Assembly (NCBI RefSeq): GCF_009914755.1
Contig: NC_060929.1
Strand: one strand, 5' to 3'
Origin: the human T2T-CHM13v2.0 reference genome, Homo sapiens
Length of the DNA stretch: 64,000 nt
Part shown: in pieces, positions 7,701 through 16,705 of the stretch
Position numbering within the stretch: position 1 is the stretch's first letter
Layout: each line of letters starts with the position of its first letter
Notes under the pieces: generated by a model
Seen by the model: only the letters and a program-made list of their open reading frames with translations
Database searches by the model: none
Told to the model about the DNA's origin: nothing
Translations under genes and position numbers: made by a program

Positions 7701-9661
7701 CACAGATGGTTCTGCATGACATGCAGGCACCACCCAAAAGTGGACAGCTGCAGCAATACAACCTCTTTCTAGGACATCCCTGAATGACAGTGGTGAAGGA
7801 AAATCTTCCCAGTGGGCAGAACTTTGAGCAGTGCACCTGGCTGTGCACTTTGCGTGGAAGGAAAAATGGCCAGACGTGAAATTATATACTGTAGCCAATG
7901 GTTTGGCTGGATGGTTAGTGACTTGCAAGAAATATGACTGGAAAATTAGTGACAAAGAAATTTGGGAAATAGGTATGTGGATGGACCTCTCTGAGTGGTC
8001 AAAAACTGTGACATTTGTATCCCATGTGATTGTTCACCAACGGGCCACCTCAGCAGAGGAGGATTTTAATAATCAAGTGGATAGGATGACTCATTCTGTG
8101 GACACCACTCAGCCTCTATCCCCAGCCACCCCTGTAATTGCCCAATGGGCCCATGAACAAAGTGGCCATGGTGGCAGGGATGGAAGTTACACATGAGCTC
8201 AGCAACATAGACTTCCACTCACCGAGGCTGACCTGGCTACGGCCACTGCTGAGTGCCCAATTTGCCAGCAGCAGAGACCAACACGGAGCCCTTGATATGG
8301 CACCATTCCTTGGGGTGATCAGCCAGCTAGTTGGTGGCAGGTTCATTATATTGGGCCTCTTCCATCATGGAAAGGACAGCAATTTGTCCTCACTGGAATA
8401 GACACTTACTCTGGATATGGGTTTGCCTATCCTGTGTACAATGCTTCTGCCAAGACTTCCACTCATGGACTCACAGAATGCCTTATCCACCATCCACCAT
8501 CATGGTGTTCCACACAGCATTGCCTCTGACCACGGCACTCACTTTACGGCTAAAGAAGTGTGGCACTGTGCTCATACTCATGGAATTCACTGGTCTTACC
8601 ATGTTCCCCATCATCCTGAAGCAGGTGGAATGCCCTTTTGAAGTCACACTTACAACACCAACTATGTGACAATACTTTGCAGGGCTGGGGCAAAGTTATC
8701 CAGAGGGCTGTGTATGCTCTGAATCAGCATCCAATATATGGTACTGTTTCTCCCATAGCCAGGATTCACAGGTCCAGAAATCAAGGGGTGGAAGTGGAAG
8801 TGGCACCACTCTCCATCACCTCTAATGACACACTAGCAAAATTTTTGTTTCCTGTTCCCATGACATTATATTCTGCTGGCCTAGAGGTCTCAGTTCCAGA
8901 GGGAGGAATGCTGCCAACAGGGGAAACAATAACGATTCAATTTAACTGGAAGTTAAGATTGCCACCTGGACACTTTTCCTACCTAAGTCAACAGGCTAAG
9001 AAGGGAGTTACAGTGTTGGTTGGGGTGATTTTCCCAGACTATCAAGATGAAATCAGTCTACTACACCACAGTGAAGCTAAGGAAGAGTATGTGTGGAATA
9101 CAGGAGTTAGGGCATCTCTTAGTTTTACCATGCCCTGTGATGAGGGTCATTGGGAAACTGCAACAGCCCTATTCAGGCAGAACTGCAAATGGGTTCCAGA
9201 CCCCTCAGGAATGAAGGTTTGGGTCACTCCACCAGGTAAAAAACCACGACCTGCTGAGGTGCTTGCTGAAGTCAAAGGGAATACAGAATGGGTAGTAGAA
9301 TAAGGCAGTCATCGATGCCAGCTACGACCATGTGACCAGTTGCAGAAATGAGGACGATAATTGTCATGAGTATTTCCTCCTTATTTTGTTAAGAACATGT
9401 TTGTGCATTTATACACTTGTACTAAGAAAATATTTTATTTCCTTTTTTCTTCATCATATAAGATTTATTGACTTTATATTAGCATTTAAGCGTTGTTAAT
9501 TTTATGTAATAGCATTTGGGTTGGGGATTGGTGCATTTCCAGTTGTACGAAGAATAGTTGCATTATGTTAGGTGTAATTATGACCTTATTATTGTCTTTG
9601 TTTGAAGATTATGTATGGTTTCAGGAGATGTATATGGGTTCAAGTTGACAAGGGGAGGACT
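4706..9661 (+). mobile_element. HERV-L internal region (5'-truncated gag, pol, dUTPase), decayed
   Basis: ERV-L gag (5253-5888), RT ([24 protein letters not shown]), RNase H (AWFTDGS), integrase (HEQSGHGG, SDHGTHF), dUTPase-like (LRLPPGHF); polypurine tract aaggggagga just before the LTR. Confidence 0.95.
5950..9303 (+). pseudogene. HERV-L protease/RT/RNaseH/integrase/dUTPase reading frame, multiply disrupted
   Basis: GLLDTGS protease motif near 6010; ORF pieces 6141-6665, 6520-6969, 7228-7539, 7831-8196 and 8638-9303 separated by stops and frameshifts. Confidence 0.9.
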
Positions 9662-10100
9662 TGTGATGGTTAATATTGCCAACTTGATTGGAGTGAAGGA
9701 TGCAGAGTATTGTTCCTGGGTGTGTCTGTGACGGTGTTGTCAAAGGAGATTAACATTTGAGTCAGTGGACTGGGAAAGGCAGACCCACACTCAATCTGGG
9801 TGAGCACATTCTAATCAGCTGCCAGTGAGGCCAGTATTAAAGCAGGCAGAAGAACGTGGGAAGACTAGACTGGTTTAGTCTTCCGGCCTACATCTTTCCC
9901 TCATGCTGAATGCTTCCTGCCATCGAATATCAGACTTCAAGTTCTTCAGCTTTGGTATTCAGACTGGCTTCCTTGCTCCTTAGCTTGCACACGGCCTACT
10001 GTGGCACCTCACCTTGTGATTATGTGAGTCAATACTCCTTAATGAACTCCCCTTTATATATACATCTATTAGTTCTGTCCCTCTAGAGAACCCTAATGTA
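9662..10100 (+). mobile_element. MLT2A (HERV-L) 3' LTR
   Basis: Begins tgtgatggttaatattg directly after the PPT and ends ...ctagagaaccctaatgta; matches the MLT2A consensus as recalled. Confidence 0.92.
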
Positions 10101-10102
10101 GT

Positions 10103-10180
10103 AGGTGTTATTATTATTCCCCTTTTAAAGATGAAGAAATCAAAACACAGAGAGGGTAAGTAGCCTGCCCAGGATCACAT
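10103..10180 (-). mobile_element. MIR fragment
   Basis: attattcccctttt...gatgaagaaa...agagagggtaagtagcctgcccaggatcaca MIR core. Confidence 0.7.
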
Positions 10181-10477
10181 AGGTTTTAAGACAGTGACAC
10201 CTGAGGATAGGTTGGGTACCATGCTTGCTAACCCTATAGGGCAGTGACTTCACTCTGCAACCTTATGAAGCCCTCTGAATAATTACCTCATTTTTATTTT
10301 TTATTATTCAGAATTTCACGGGTGACCTAAATAACCACTAGGTGTTTTAGTTTCCTAGTTTGCATTTTTGCATAACTTAAAGATTTCAGGTCATTGAATT
10401 TCATTTGCTTATACTTTTTTGTTTGCATGTTTAAATCAATTTTGCTTCTTGTACAAAGCAAGCCTTGTTTTCCTCAG

Positions 10478-10534
10478 AGCTCTAGAAACCAACAAGTGTA
10501 CCCAAACCACAGCCACGTACCTCTTGCTTGCTGA
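10478..10534 (+). CDS. IRGM: IRGM alternative 3' coding exon (IRGMd-type tail), phase-0 reading SSRNQQVYPNHSHVPLAC*
   Basis: Same acceptor as the SNRK-derived exon; phase-0 frame begins SSRNQQV, which I recall as the IRGMd C-terminus; TGA at 10532-10534. Confidence 0.6.
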   Translation, partial: SSRNQQVYPNHSHVPLAC

Positions 10535-10612
10535 AAGGATCCTGAGAGAAAAGCAAGACAAAGAAATACAGATCAGCTCCGCAAGCCCTAGAAATAGCAA
10601 GGCCCAGCTCAG
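10478..10612 (+). pseudogene. SNRK: Duplicated (unprocessed) SNRK exon, UBA/post-kinase region, 135 nt with intact AG/GT
   Basis: ttcctcag|A GCT CTA GAA...CAG CTC AG|gtgaga; translates [45 protein letters not shown] versus recalled SNRK [45 protein letters not shown]. Confidence 0.9.
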
Positions 10613-10749
10613 GTGAGAAAAAAAAATCTTCACTGATTTTAGTAAGTTTAAAGTTTGGAAATAGTAAACTTTTTTTTTTGTTGTTGTTGTTGTTAATGCT
10701 TCCTAACTTTGTGAGGCTAGAGAGTACAAATAGTGATCCCAACTTCCTG

Positions 10750-10860
10750 ACTCAGCTTCCTGATCTGTAAAATGGGAGTAATAATACTCTCTACCTCATG
10801 AGATTGTGGTGAAAGATATGCAAATCAATAGATGTGACATACTTAGGACAGGGCTCCATG
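10750..10860 (+). mobile_element. MIR fragment
   Basis: ctcagcttcctgatctgtaaaatgggagtaataatactctctacctcatgagattgtgg MIR core. Confidence 0.7.
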
Positions 10861-11324
10861 TGTTTGTTGCCATTGCTATGAATTTTTACCACCATTATTG
10901 TCTTCAGGAATAAATGACTACCCTTCTTCTCTCTTCCTTCCTCTACCTCTTCCTTCCTCTCTTCCTCTCTTCCAGCTCCTCCTCCTCTCTCCTCATCTTC
11001 CCACCTTTTTTTGCCATATTACTTTCCACTTAAAATAAAAACATAGAAAGGGTTTACTTTTTGAGCTCATCACTATGAAATTTATTTAGAATTTATCTTT
11101 ATCCATTTAGATATAGGTAATTTGTAGAATTGTAGTAAAACTGAAGGGTATTCCCAATTCTGAATACATCTGATTTGTGCATCCAAATATGTATATTTAT
11201 TACTGTTATAAGGTCTATATAATTATTATTATTGTGTAATTATTATTATTGGAAAAGATAAATGTATAATTATTGTTGTTATATTATTATTATTTAAAAT
11301 TTGTTATGAGAATAATTATTATTG

Positions 11325-11570
11325 TCTCTTAGGATTCTTTCAGTAAGAAAGAAATAAGTGGCTGCAATGTGGGTATACCTGTTGGTTTCCAGGGCTCTAA
11401 GGAAAACAAAGTTTACTTTTTACAAGAGGTATAATTGATTTAATGAAGCAAATGAAAAAATACTAGCAAAATTCAATGACTTGGAATCTTTAAATTATGC
11501 AAAAATACACACTAGGGGTTAAAACACCTAGTAATTACTTAGGTCACTCTTGACTCTTGAAATTCTAAAA
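11325..11570 (-). pseudogene. SNRK: Second, inverted copy of the SNRK intron-end/exon fragment
   Basis: Reverse strand ttttccttag|A GCC CTG GAA ACC AAC AGG TAT...; translates ALETNRYTHIAATYFFLTERILR; 57/72 nt identical to 10478-10549, and about 170 nt of intron also align. Confidence 0.9.
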
Positions 11571-11959
11571 ACAACTGCATAAAAATGTTCATATCAGTAA
11601 GAAAAATCCAAAATGCTGATGGTAGCTGAGATGGATGTCAGTGTTAGATGCATAAGAAAAGGTAATGAGTAAAAAGGGAAAGGTAAATGAAGCTTCCAAG
11701 GATGTGCAGGTTATCCAAAAATTTAATTGCATGCCAGTGTTTATTTTTGTTAAACTGGCTTACTTGCTTCCATCAGAAGTAAGAAATGTAGATGAGGTCT
11801 GTATTACATAAATGTGCATTGAAACACCAGTGTCAATCAGAAAAATTAGAAAAATCTTTGTTTTCAGATTCTCTTTGCATTTATTGGTAATTTAAGCACT
11901 AAAGAATTATTCATGTGTTAAGAATATGTCATCATTAACCTCTTTGAATGAAAGCAATG

Positions 11960-12040
11960 TATTCATTCATCCATTTAAAAAGTAATGCTTGCCAAGTACT
12001 TAGTCTGGCCAGGCACTGTGCTGGCTAGGCACTGGGGGTA
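11960..12040 (-). mobile_element. L2 3' end fragment
   Basis: attcattcatccatttaaaaagta...ccaggcactgtgctggctaggcactgggg. Confidence 0.65.
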
Positions 12041-12082
12041 TAACTTCCACAAGGCTCACATTCCCTACCCACTCTCTTGCAG

Positions 12083-12144
12083 CTGGCCTGCCATGAGAAA
12101 TACCTCAAGAGTACTCCAGAGAATTCCACAAGGCCCAGAAATAT
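12083..12144 (+). CDS. IRGM: IRGM alternative internal coding exon (LACHEKYLKSTPENSTRPRN)
   Basis: ctctcttgcag|CTG GCC TGC...AGA AAT AT|gtaagt, 62 nt, strong splice sites; peptide matches the recalled C-terminus of IRGM isoforms b/c. Confidence 0.85.
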
Positions 12145-12229
12145 GTAAGTATTTAGAAACTTTCTACAGTGAAAATACACAATGAACACTAAGGATAGAA
12201 GCAACAGCTAAGATCACTTTTTATAAAAC

Positions 12230-12847
12230 ATAGTGTGGGTCACAGCTCATTGTGATGGGGTAGGCCAAGGCATGAGATTCCAGAGAAAGAGCCCAAGGTA
12301 AAATTCAAGGGTACACTTACTTCTTAGGGTGGCTTCTTCAGCTGAGTACCAGATAAAAAGATAGCTTGTGTTGAAGCAGTATATTGTAAGACTAAGGTGT
12401 GTCTTAAACTCAAGAATTACCCTCAGAATGAAAAGCTGCTCATAAACGTGAGCAGCAGGCAAGACCTAAGACTAGTTGAGGGATCAGCAGGCTCTAGTCT
12501 CCCACTTTCTTCCCTATATAAGATGTGTGCTTGCTAGTGGATGGGCAAACTGGAGTCATCTGAACCATTAAAATTCCTGTCTTTGGATTTATAATTGAAT
12601 ATACATTAATTAAATAGTTTTGTATGACTTCACTGTCATTATTTGTATAATTGTTTATTTAAGCTTAGAACATTCAGTCAATTGTGGGAGATATGAACAG
12701 CTTTTTATCCATTTGAAAATGCCACATTGTTTTCTACATATTCCTAAAGTGAGGGTCCTCGGCATGTGTAGCAAGTGTCCTGTTTGTTGTTCCTTGTTTC
12801 GTTCATTTAAGTGTCTGTGGGTATATCTGCAAAAACTCATAAGGCAC
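12230..12847 (-). pseudogene. Decayed V2R (vomeronasal type-2, class C GPCR) exon-3 remnant, copy A
   Basis: Acceptor tttttcag|VPYEF, then LLHMPRTLTLGI...FKWI, VILEFKTHL, KCT...LWN and AVTHTM, in the order of V2R exon-3 motifs (L/VSYG, YQMAPKDTSLALG..HF.W.W, EIP.FK.F, NC...LEW, AVAH.LH). Confidence 0.55.
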
Positions 12848-13324
12848 CTGAAAAATTGTAGAAATTTATGCTTAAACCGAAATTAAGAACCTGGGTTTAT
12901 TTTAGTAAATCTTTCTCTCCAGTTTTCTAGAAACATCCTAAAGATATATATCCTTTATACAGACACTAACCTTCTCAGGAACCACACACTCCCACTGAGT
13001 GTTGCCTGTGATAGTTTGCCCTATGCAGAGGTCCATCTGTAAGTCCAACTTGCAGCCTCCTGTCCTCCTAGGTCATGTATCTAGGTCACATCACTCACCC
13101 AGGCCAGGAAAGCCCTCCCAATGGGAACCCGCTTTTAAGTTGTCCAGAGTATACCTTCTTGCTATCATATTCAACTGTATCACTCAACATGTTAAATAAC
13201 TTTCACTTTTCATGTGGGAAAATGTTTCATATTTTCATAAAGAGTACCTCATGGAAGTTAATCATCACTGAAACAAAACAACTGTGCCTTTGCTTTGTGT
13301 TGTCCTTGATTTCAAACGTCTTCA

Positions 13325-16705
<3,381 letters not shown>

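What the first reader, a model, noticed from the sequence alone, without database searches (positions are those of the whole stretch)
10290..11590. Inverted SNRK-exon duplicate that could fold over the acceptor of an IRGM alternative exon (candidate RNA-structure splicing switch)
Seen: 10305-10549 (+) and 11325-11570 (-) form an inverted repeat of about 250 bp that is not a transposon, with a loop of about 775 nt. Both arms are the same SNRK intron-end plus exon (57/72 identity in the exon part, no indels). In a plus-strand transcript the downstream arm is complementary to the polypyrimidine tract, the AG at 10476-10477 and the first 72 nt of the exon. Recalled: this exon supplies the IRGMd tail. 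Inference: the duplex could mask the acceptor and favour skipping to the 12083 exon, and could be an ADAR substrate, linking IRGM isoform choice to dsRNA/interferon state. I know of no description of this.
Basis: partly seen in the sequence, partly recalled or inferred. Interest (0 to 1): 0.85.

Follow-up and report, generated by a model that had tools for sequence, protein, structure and literature searches.

The report
Inverted SNRK-fragment repeat in IRGM intron
Downstream of the IRGM coding exon lies a rearranged old copy of part of the SNRK kinase gene whose two overlapping, oppositely oriented ends form a real 265-base inverted repeat around an IRGM alternative exon, but it looks like a neutrally decaying by-product of the rearrangement and not a proven splicing switch.

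Summary
Arms 10289-10553 (+) and 11322-11587 (-) are 79% identical (205/260; 57/72 in the exon part, no indels), with a 768-nt loop. The sequence occurs only here and at SNRK on chr3, so it is not a transposon.

New here: the repeat is the overlap of two oppositely oriented pieces of one ~3.3-kb genomic copy of SNRK.
- 10289-11262 (+) is intron end, a whole 135-nt exon and downstream intron.
- 11322-~13660 (-) is upstream intron plus the first ~75 exon nt.

IRGM exon 10478-10612 is the SNRK exon with its own splice sites, read out of the SNRK frame (18 residues, then a stop). IRGM exon 12083-12144 lies in antisense SNRK intron.

On the plus-strand RNA the arms are predicted to form a 211-bp imperfect duplex (-263.5 kcal/mol, z -43) that covers the branch zone, pyrimidine tract, AG and 72 exon nt. 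Masking or looping-out is therefore physically plausible.

Nothing shows it is used or selected. The two arms and SNRK are about equidistant. Transition differences split 18 pairing-tolerant to 18 disruptive. The acceptor is predicted paired even without arm B. I found no print record. The IRGMd tail and the interferon/ADAR link are untested. It is a known kind of mechanism with an unusual, non-transposon source.

The parts
10289..10553 (+). Arm A: copy of the SNRK intron end (10289-10477) plus the first ~75 nt of the SNRK exon. It contains the branch zone, pyrimidine tract, AG 10476-10477 and the IRGM-frame stop codon.
11322..11587 (-). Arm B: second, inverted copy of the same SNRK intron end plus the first ~75 exon nt. 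Homology to the exon stops at about 11322.
10554..11321 (+). Loop (768 nt): rest of the exon, donor GT 10613-10614, SNRK downstream-intron copy with a multi-copy element at about 10742-10818 and a pyrimidine-rich tract, then an AT-rich junction.
10478..10612 (+). IRGM alternative exon (RefSeq, hub table). It is a full 135-nt SNRK exon copy with the same acceptor and donor positions. In the IRGM frame it encodes 18 residues and then TGA at 10532-10534. The SNRK frame (+1) is still open for 44 codons.
10289..11262 (+). SNRK-derived piece 1, in IRGM sense: chr3 43358448-43358897 and 43359306-43359786 (76% and 68% identity). 409 bp of the present SNRK intron are absent between the two blocks.
11322..13660 (-). 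SNRK-derived piece 2, antisense to IRGM: chr3 43358723 back to about 43356456 (about 70% identity). It is interrupted near its far end by an Alu at 13337-13648.
12083..12144 (+). Second IRGM alternative exon (RefSeq, hub table), made from antisense SNRK intron. The AG is present in both copies. The donor is GTAAGT here and GTAACT in the SNRK reverse complement.
11205..11321 (.). AT-rich (ATT-type) low-complexity stretch at the junction between the two oppositely oriented SNRK pieces.
   Evidence: (family D1)

Best explanation
The inverted repeat is a structural by-product. A genomic (intron-containing, so DNA-mediated) piece of SNRK about 3.3 kb long was copied to 5q33.1 tens of millions of years ago. 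At that time or soon after, it was rearranged so that the part 'intron end + exon + downstream intron' points one way and the part 'upstream intron + intron end + exon start' points the other way. The ~265 bp present in both parts is the repeat. This layout is what an inversion with staggered breaks, or a fold-back template switch, leaves behind. The rearranged block later supplied two alternative 3' exons to the long IRGM transcripts: the SNRK exon itself, read out of the SNRK frame, and an exon from antisense SNRK intron. In plus-strand pre-mRNA the arms can form a 211-bp imperfect, AU-rich duplex that buries the acceptor of exon 10478-10612 and loops the exon out. Most likely this passively lowers inclusion of that exon, and the duplex may be A-to-I edited as inverted Alu pairs are. 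It would not be an evolved, regulated switch. Shown: the repeat, its SNRK origin, the block layout, the predicted duplex and the neutral substitution pattern. Inferred: how the rearrangement happened, that the duplex forms in cells, and any effect on splicing.
For: Origin: blastn of 19.8 kb of the chr3 locus against the window gives collinear blocks, 10289-10737 and 10748-11262 on plus and 11322-13639 on minus. Identity is 0.61-0.82 per 100 columns across the non-Alu part of piece 2. The only other genomic match of piece 2 is SNRK. The parent is SNRK itself. Timing: in the overlap, three-way site patterns are s=21 (A=B, differs from SNRK), a=13, b=23. Pairwise identities are A-B 80.6%, A-SNRK 81.5%, B-SNRK 77.5%. 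The three copies are therefore about equidistant. Duplex: the MFE and centroid of 10250-11650 both pair the arms. Cofold is -263.5 kcal/mol, and the gain is -170.4 against -12.5 +/- 3.7 for 100 shuffles. Pairing probability with arm B is 0.97 for the AG, 0.83 for the pyrimidine tract, 0.86 for the branch zone and 0.82 for the 72 exon nt. There are 211 pairs (134 AU, 62 GC, 15 GU) and the longest uninterrupted runs are 23 and 23. Neutrality: 18 G:U-tolerated against 18 A:C-disruptive transition differences, binomial p=1. Precedent: inverted intronic Alus pair, are edited and shift an exon to alternative splicing (PMC2533698, abstract). Exons looped out by stable complementary regions have lower inclusion, and ADAR sites are enriched in stable pairs (PMC8052449, passages).
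Against: No expression, editing, crosslinking or cross-species data could be consulted, so duplex formation in cells and any effect on splicing are unshown. The model predicts the pyrimidine tract (0.88) and AG (0.97) paired even in 10100-11321 without arm B, so the energy model does not isolate arm B's contribution. The acceptor emerges 850-1100 nt before arm B, so co-transcriptional recognition could precede duplex formation (inference). Arm A has fewer private changes than arm B (13 against 23), which could hint at some constraint on arm A, but the difference is small. Rearrangement in one event or in two cannot be told apart without other species. RefSeq annotates the exon as used, so any masking is incomplete.
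Confidence: 0.55

Rival explanations
1. One reading: the duplex is a regulated splicing switch. Its formation, editing or unwinding (ADAR1, dsRNA helicases) varies with dsRNA/interferon state and sets the choice between the 10478 exon and the 12083 or 33087 exons, and with it the IRGM C-terminal tail.
For: The duplex covers the acceptor, and its geometry loops out the exon with the next exon just beyond arm B. Duplex size and imperfection resemble inverted Alu pairs that are edited and affect splicing (PMC2533698 abstract; PMC8052449 passages). Inclusion creates a stop 78 nt before the exon end, so the choice would also set sensitivity to nonsense-mediated decay. [quoted passage not shown]
Against: No signature of maintained pairing (18:18; equidistant copies). 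IRGM transcripts did not rise with interferon (PMC1297648 passages). No paper in the library connects IRGM with editing or inverted repeats. All regulatory steps are conjecture.
Confidence: 0.1
2. The repeat has no effect on RNA processing. The acceptor is recognised co-transcriptionally, or the nascent RNA is coated or unwound, so the duplex never matters. The exon is alternative for other reasons, such as competition with distant acceptors or low IRGM read-through.
For: Arm B is made 850-1100 nt after the acceptor (coordinates). The substitution pattern is neutral. Local pairing of the acceptor is predicted regardless of arm B. The exon is annotated as used (hub table).
Against: A duplex gain of -170 kcal/mol is far above the energies at which looped-out exons show reduced inclusion and ADAR-site enrichment genome-wide (below -30 kcal/mol, PMC8052449 passages).
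Confidence: 0.3
3. The intronic parts of the arms (10289-10477 and 11398-11587) flank the exon and promote back-splicing of exon 10478-10612 into a 135-nt circular RNA.
For: Inverted complementary sequence lies on both sides of the exon. This geometry is the established one for circular RNA formation (general knowledge, no call).
Against: The duplex runs 72 nt into the exon and buries the acceptor that back-splicing needs. A 135-nt single-exon circle is small. No data were available.
Confidence: 0.05

Closest known systems
Inverted intronic Alu pairs that form dsRNA, are A-to-I edited and make a nearby exon alternative (Lev-Maor et al. 2008, PMC2533698; abstract read)
   Same: Two arms of about 265-300 nt at about 80% complementarity, less than 1 kb apart in one intron region, next to or overlapping an alternatively used exon. 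The predicted duplex is long and imperfect.
   Different: The arms are not transposons: the sequence has 3 places in the genome. They are two copies of a unique SNRK gene fragment. One arm contains the acceptor and the exon start itself instead of lying beside the exon. Editing and a splicing effect are not shown here.
Long-range complementary regions that loop out exons (PCCR catalogue, Kalmykova et al. 2021, PMC8052449; passages read)
   Same: Pairing across an exon, which is associated genome-wide with lower inclusion and more so for more stable structures.
   Different: Those pairs are short (tens of nt) and were selected for conservation. This one is 211 bp and shows no sign of conservation of pairing. 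[quoted passage not shown]
Exon co-option from a duplicated gene fragment (segmental-duplication exon shuffling; general knowledge)
   Same: A DNA-level copy of an exon with its flanking introns keeps its splice sites and is spliced into a neighbouring gene's transcripts.
   Different: The exon is read out of its original frame and gives only an 18-residue tail before a stop. A second exon arose from the antisense strand of the copied intron.
Inversions with inverted duplications at their ends (staggered-break model) or fold-back template switching (recalled from the literature, no paper read here)
   Same: A segment (10554-11321) is flanked by inverted copies of the sequence that adjoined one breakpoint. 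Each piece is collinear with the parent locus.
   Different: The pre-rearrangement state cannot be seen without other species, so the mechanism is inferred from layout only.

Membership tests
Intronic inverted-repeat dsRNA / exon loop-out structure | Two complementary arms on the same transcribed strand within a few kb | tested here: met
   Arms 10289-10553 and 11322-11587, 768 nt apart. Both lie inside the RefSeq IRGM span (hub table).
Intronic inverted-repeat dsRNA / exon loop-out structure | Predicted duplex far more stable than composition-matched controls | tested here: met
   Cofold -263.5 kcal/mol. The gain is -170.4 against -12.5 +/- 3.7 for 100 shuffles, z -43.
Intronic inverted-repeat dsRNA / exon loop-out structure | Duplex overlaps a splice site or brackets an exon | tested here: met
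   The AG pairs with arm B at P 0.97, the pyrimidine tract at 0.83, and the donor lies in the loop.
Intronic inverted-repeat dsRNA / exon loop-out structure | Duplex forms in cells (editing clusters, crosslink or proximity-ligation reads) | not testable with these tools
   No RNA-seq, editing database or PARIS/RIC-seq access.
Intronic inverted-repeat dsRNA / exon loop-out structure | Splicing changes when an arm is disrupted and is rescued by compensatory change | not testable with these tools
   Needs a minigene or antisense-oligonucleotide experiment.
Selected (functional) RNA structure | Pairing preserved beyond neutral expectation | tested here: not met
   18 G:U-tolerated against 18 A:C-disruptive transition differences. 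Arm-arm identity is not above arm-parent identity. This is a single-genome test only, and no other species were available.
Transposon-derived inverted repeat (inverted Alu type) | Arms belong to an interspersed repeat family | tested here: not met
   Only 3 genomic places match arm A plus exon: itself, arm B and SNRK. No Rfam family in 9500-14000.
Duplicated SNRK gene fragment | Homology to the parent gene over exon and both flanking introns, with collinear blocks | tested here: met
   The protein-level match to SNRK (5yks) is E 3e-11 and 7.5e-7.
Inversion with inverted duplication at a breakpoint | Duplicated sequence in inverted orientation flanks the inverted segment, and each piece is collinear with the parent | tested here: met
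   The layout is b-c (plus) then b-a (minus) in SNRK coordinates.
Inversion with inverted duplication at a breakpoint | An outgroup shows the un-inverted, single-copy state | not testable with these tools
   No other mammalian genome is held.

The most novel reading that the evidence does not exclude
A one-off, non-transposon inverted duplication of a kinase-gene fragment gave the 'resurrected' human IRGM both of its proximal alternative 3' exons and a built-in 211-bp dsRNA gate over one acceptor. Editing or unwinding of that gate by ADAR1 or dsRNA helicases would tune which C-terminal tail is made and how much transcript is exposed to nonsense-mediated decay. That would tie output of an autophagy and interferon regulator to the cell's dsRNA state.
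Probability: 0.08. Interest if true: 0.7.

Novelty: new member of a known kind. Interest (0 to 1): 0.4.

Why it matters
IRGM is a Crohn's disease and tuberculosis risk gene, and reviews report that its isoforms behave differently (PMC9192921 and PMC3547297, passages). The origin of their tails is described only as 'short sequence extensions unrelated to known GTPase domains' (PMC1297648, passages). This work shows that two of the annotated 3' exons come from a rearranged SNRK fragment, which explains where those tails come from. It also gives a concrete, cheap test of whether a non-Alu inverted repeat governs exon choice: editing reads, or a minigene with arm B deleted. If the duplex acts, it would be a clean, unique-sequence model of inverted-repeat control of splicing, free of the mapping ambiguity of Alus. 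If it does not, the locus is an ordinary relic.

Tried and rejected
1. Shared Alu as a dating marker. An Alu sits at the collinear position in both the window (13337-13648) and the SNRK intron, with similar flanks, which at first suggested a primate-age duplication carrying the Alu. In a tree of the 16 Alus from the window, the SNRK locus and the upstream 24 kb that covered more than 250 nt of the query (shorter hits were dropped), the two are not sisters. The SNRK Alu groups with a young Alu (92% identity) and both have short end branches of about 0.06 (supports are modest, no fork starred). I therefore read them as independent insertions at the same A-rich target and do not use them for dating.

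2. Remnants of other IRG genes near the block, to test whether the block marks the primate IRG-cluster deletion. tblastn of the 181-aa IRGM protein against the window gave no hit at E up to 10.

3. A weak antisense match of 10061-10173 to chr3 43359280-43359393 (64%, E 8.5e-6). It is too weak, lies in a region with multi-copy elements, and was not pursued.

4. Rfam scan of 9500-14000: nothing.

5. Literature. IRGM+SNRK gave 5 papers, judged unrelated from the listing. IRGM+A-to-I+ADAR gave 4 papers; in the 2 I opened IRGM appears only in the reference list, and the other 2 were judged from the listing. IRGM+'inverted repeat' gave 5 papers, judged unrelated from the listing.

6. Verifying the IRGMd tail. 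Singh 2010 (PMC2996476) is not held.

Full report
**1. The observation**

The sequence and the repeat finder show inverted pairs that together cover 10289-10552 and 11322-11587. Aligned as one pair, the arms run continuously with a few small indels.
- 205 of 260 aligned positions are identical.
- The loop is 768 nt.
- A whole-assembly search with 10290-10620 returned three places only: itself, arm B (79%, E 2.6e-48) and chr3:43358479-43358791 (76%, E 3e-58).

The repeat is therefore real, far beyond chance, and not an interspersed repeat.

**2. SNRK origin**

Arm A's exon, translated in frame +1, matches PDB 5yks (SNF-related serine/threonine kinase) residues 337-377 at E 3e-11. Arm B matches residues 337-360 at E 7.5e-7. 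The chr3 exon is 135 nt, the same length as IRGM exon 10478-10612. It translates to exactly the residues printed for the PDB chain. The chr3 locus is therefore SNRK itself.

**3. The repeat is part of a larger block**

I compared 19.8 kb around the SNRK exon with the window. This gave collinear blocks.
- 10289-10737 (plus) matches chr3 43358448-43358897 at 76%.
- 10748-11262 (plus) matches chr3 43359306-43359786 at 68%.
- 11322-13639 (minus) matches chr3 43358723-43356456 at 70%.

Identity along the minus piece stays between 0.61 and 0.82 per 100 columns outside the Alu. Genome-wide, that piece matches only SNRK.

In SNRK terms, let a be the upstream intron, b the intron end plus about 75 exon nt, and c the rest of the exon plus the downstream intron. 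The window then reads b-c on plus, an AT-rich junction (11205-11321), and b-a on minus. The inverted repeat is simply b, present in both pieces.

A segment flanked by inverted copies of one breakpoint's neighbourhood is what a staggered-break inversion or a fold-back template switch leaves. That mechanism is recalled knowledge, not tested here. Because introns are included, the copy was DNA-mediated and not a retrocopy.

**4. Age and order of events**

In the overlap, site patterns are 21 (A=B, differs from SNRK), 13 (A alone differs) and 23 (B alone differs). Identities are A-B 80.6%, A-SNRK 81.5% and B-SNRK 77.5%. The three copies are about equidistant, so the inverted duplication arose with the transfer from SNRK or soon after it.

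An Alu lies at the collinear site in both loci, but a tree of 16 local Alus does not pair the two. The SNRK Alu is 92% identical to an unrelated young Alu. I read them as independent insertions into the same A-rich target. The block is then older than both Alus.

With 19-30% divergence between copies, the event is tens of millions of years old. It cannot be dated further without other species.

**5. Relation to IRGM**

The IRGM ORF lies at chr5:151384622-151385167 (L006 4622-5167, 181 aa). A strong donor (CGG|GTATGT) follows codon 177 in phase 0.

Joined to exon 10478-10612, the reading frame gives SSRNQQVYPNHSHVPLAC and then TGA at 10532-10534, 78 nt before the exon end. This is not the SNRK frame, which is still open for 44 codons.

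The acceptor and donor of this exon are the SNRK ones.

The second annotated exon, 12083-12144, lies in the antisense SNRK intron copy. Its AG is present in both copies, and its donor reads GTAAGT here against GTAACT in SNRK.

[quoted passage not shown] SNRK is not mentioned with IRGM in any relevant paper of the library.

Whether the 18-residue tail is the one called IRGMd could not be checked. A review says that IRGMb and IRGMd carry a G5 (SAK) motif (passages).

**6. The RNA structure**

Folding 10250-11650 pairs the arms in both the MFE and the centroid structure.
- Cofolding the arms gives -263.5 kcal/mol. The gain over self-folding is -170.4, against -12.5 +/- 3.7 for 100 dinucleotide shuffles.
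- In the partition function of 10100-11800, the probability of pairing with arm B is 0.86 for the branch zone, 0.83 for the pyrimidine tract, 0.97 for the AG and 0.82 for the 72 exon nt. The donor lies in the loop.
- The duplex has 211 pairs (134 AU, 62 GC, 15 GU), and the longest uninterrupted runs are 23 and 23.

This resembles inverted Alu pairs, which pair, are edited and can make an exon alternative (PMC2533698, abstract). Exons looped out by stable complementary regions are less included, and ADAR sites are enriched in stable pairs (PMC8052449, passages). The proposed mechanism is therefore of a known kind and is physically plausible.

**7. Evidence against a selected switch**

- Among arm differences, transitions that keep a G:U pair in the plus-strand RNA number 18 and those that give A:C number 18, with 19 transversions. 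There is no strand-specific preservation.
- Arm-arm identity is not above arm-parent identity.
- The model predicts the pyrimidine tract (0.88) and the AG (0.97) paired even when arm B is excluded. Predicted pairing alone does not show that arm B matters, although weak local AU pairing is far easier to displace than a 211-bp duplex (inference).
- The acceptor is transcribed 850-1100 nt before arm B.
- IRGM transcripts did not rise with interferon.
- No paper links IRGM to editing or to an inverted repeat.
- IRGM is absent from the three held supplementary files of the PCCR paper. The supplements of the RIC-seq paper could not be opened and might bear on this.

**8. Verdict**

The origin story (rearranged SNRK fragment, co-opted exons) is well supported. 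The splicing-switch idea is plausible but untested and has no evolutionary support in this single genome.

I rate the passive-relic reading, with a probable dampening effect on exon inclusion, at 0.55, no effect at 0.3, a regulated switch at 0.1 and circular-RNA promotion at 0.05.

It is a new member of a known kind (inverted-repeat dsRNA over a splice site; exon co-option from a duplicated gene fragment). What is unusual is that the arms are unique sequence and that one arm is the exon itself.

Noticed in passing
window 13337-13648 and chr3 43356459-43356760 (L004 7459-7760): An Alu sits at the collinear position, in the same orientation, in both the SNRK intron and its chr5 copy, next to a TTATTAAAA site. 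A tree of 16 local Alus does not pair them, and the SNRK Alu has near-perfect target-site duplications. This looks like parallel independent insertion into paralogous target sites. Gene conversion of an older shared Alu is not excluded.
   Followed up: partly
window 10737-10748 against chr3 43358898-43359305: About 409 bp of the present SNRK intron have no counterpart in the chr5 copy. Either something was inserted later in SNRK or the copy lost the stretch.
   Followed up: no
window about 10742-10818 and about 10922-11009: Inside the loop, two short stretches have dozens of weak matches across the genome. The first contains a motif I recall as the MIR core (recall, no call names it) and is shared with SNRK. 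The second is a CT-rich low-complexity tract.
   Followed up: no
window 12634-12847 (-): The last exon of lncRNA LOC124901111 (hub table) lies inside the SNRK-derived piece 2, on the strand that is sense to the old SNRK intron. The block therefore also contributes to a second transcript.
   Followed up: no
window 10061-10173: Weak antisense similarity (64%, E 8.5e-6) to chr3 43359280-43359393, a stretch that also matches 10748 onward in sense. This may be a further small inverted SNRK-derived piece left of arm A, or just a shared old repeat.
   Followed up: no
L006 5150-5160 (chr5:151385150-151385160), outside the window: The stop codon of the 181-aa IRGM form lies four codons into the intron, just past a strong phase-0 donor (CGG|GTATGT). 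The canonical protein is therefore the intron-retaining, unspliced reading, and all spliced forms replace its last four residues (VCEY).
   Followed up: partly
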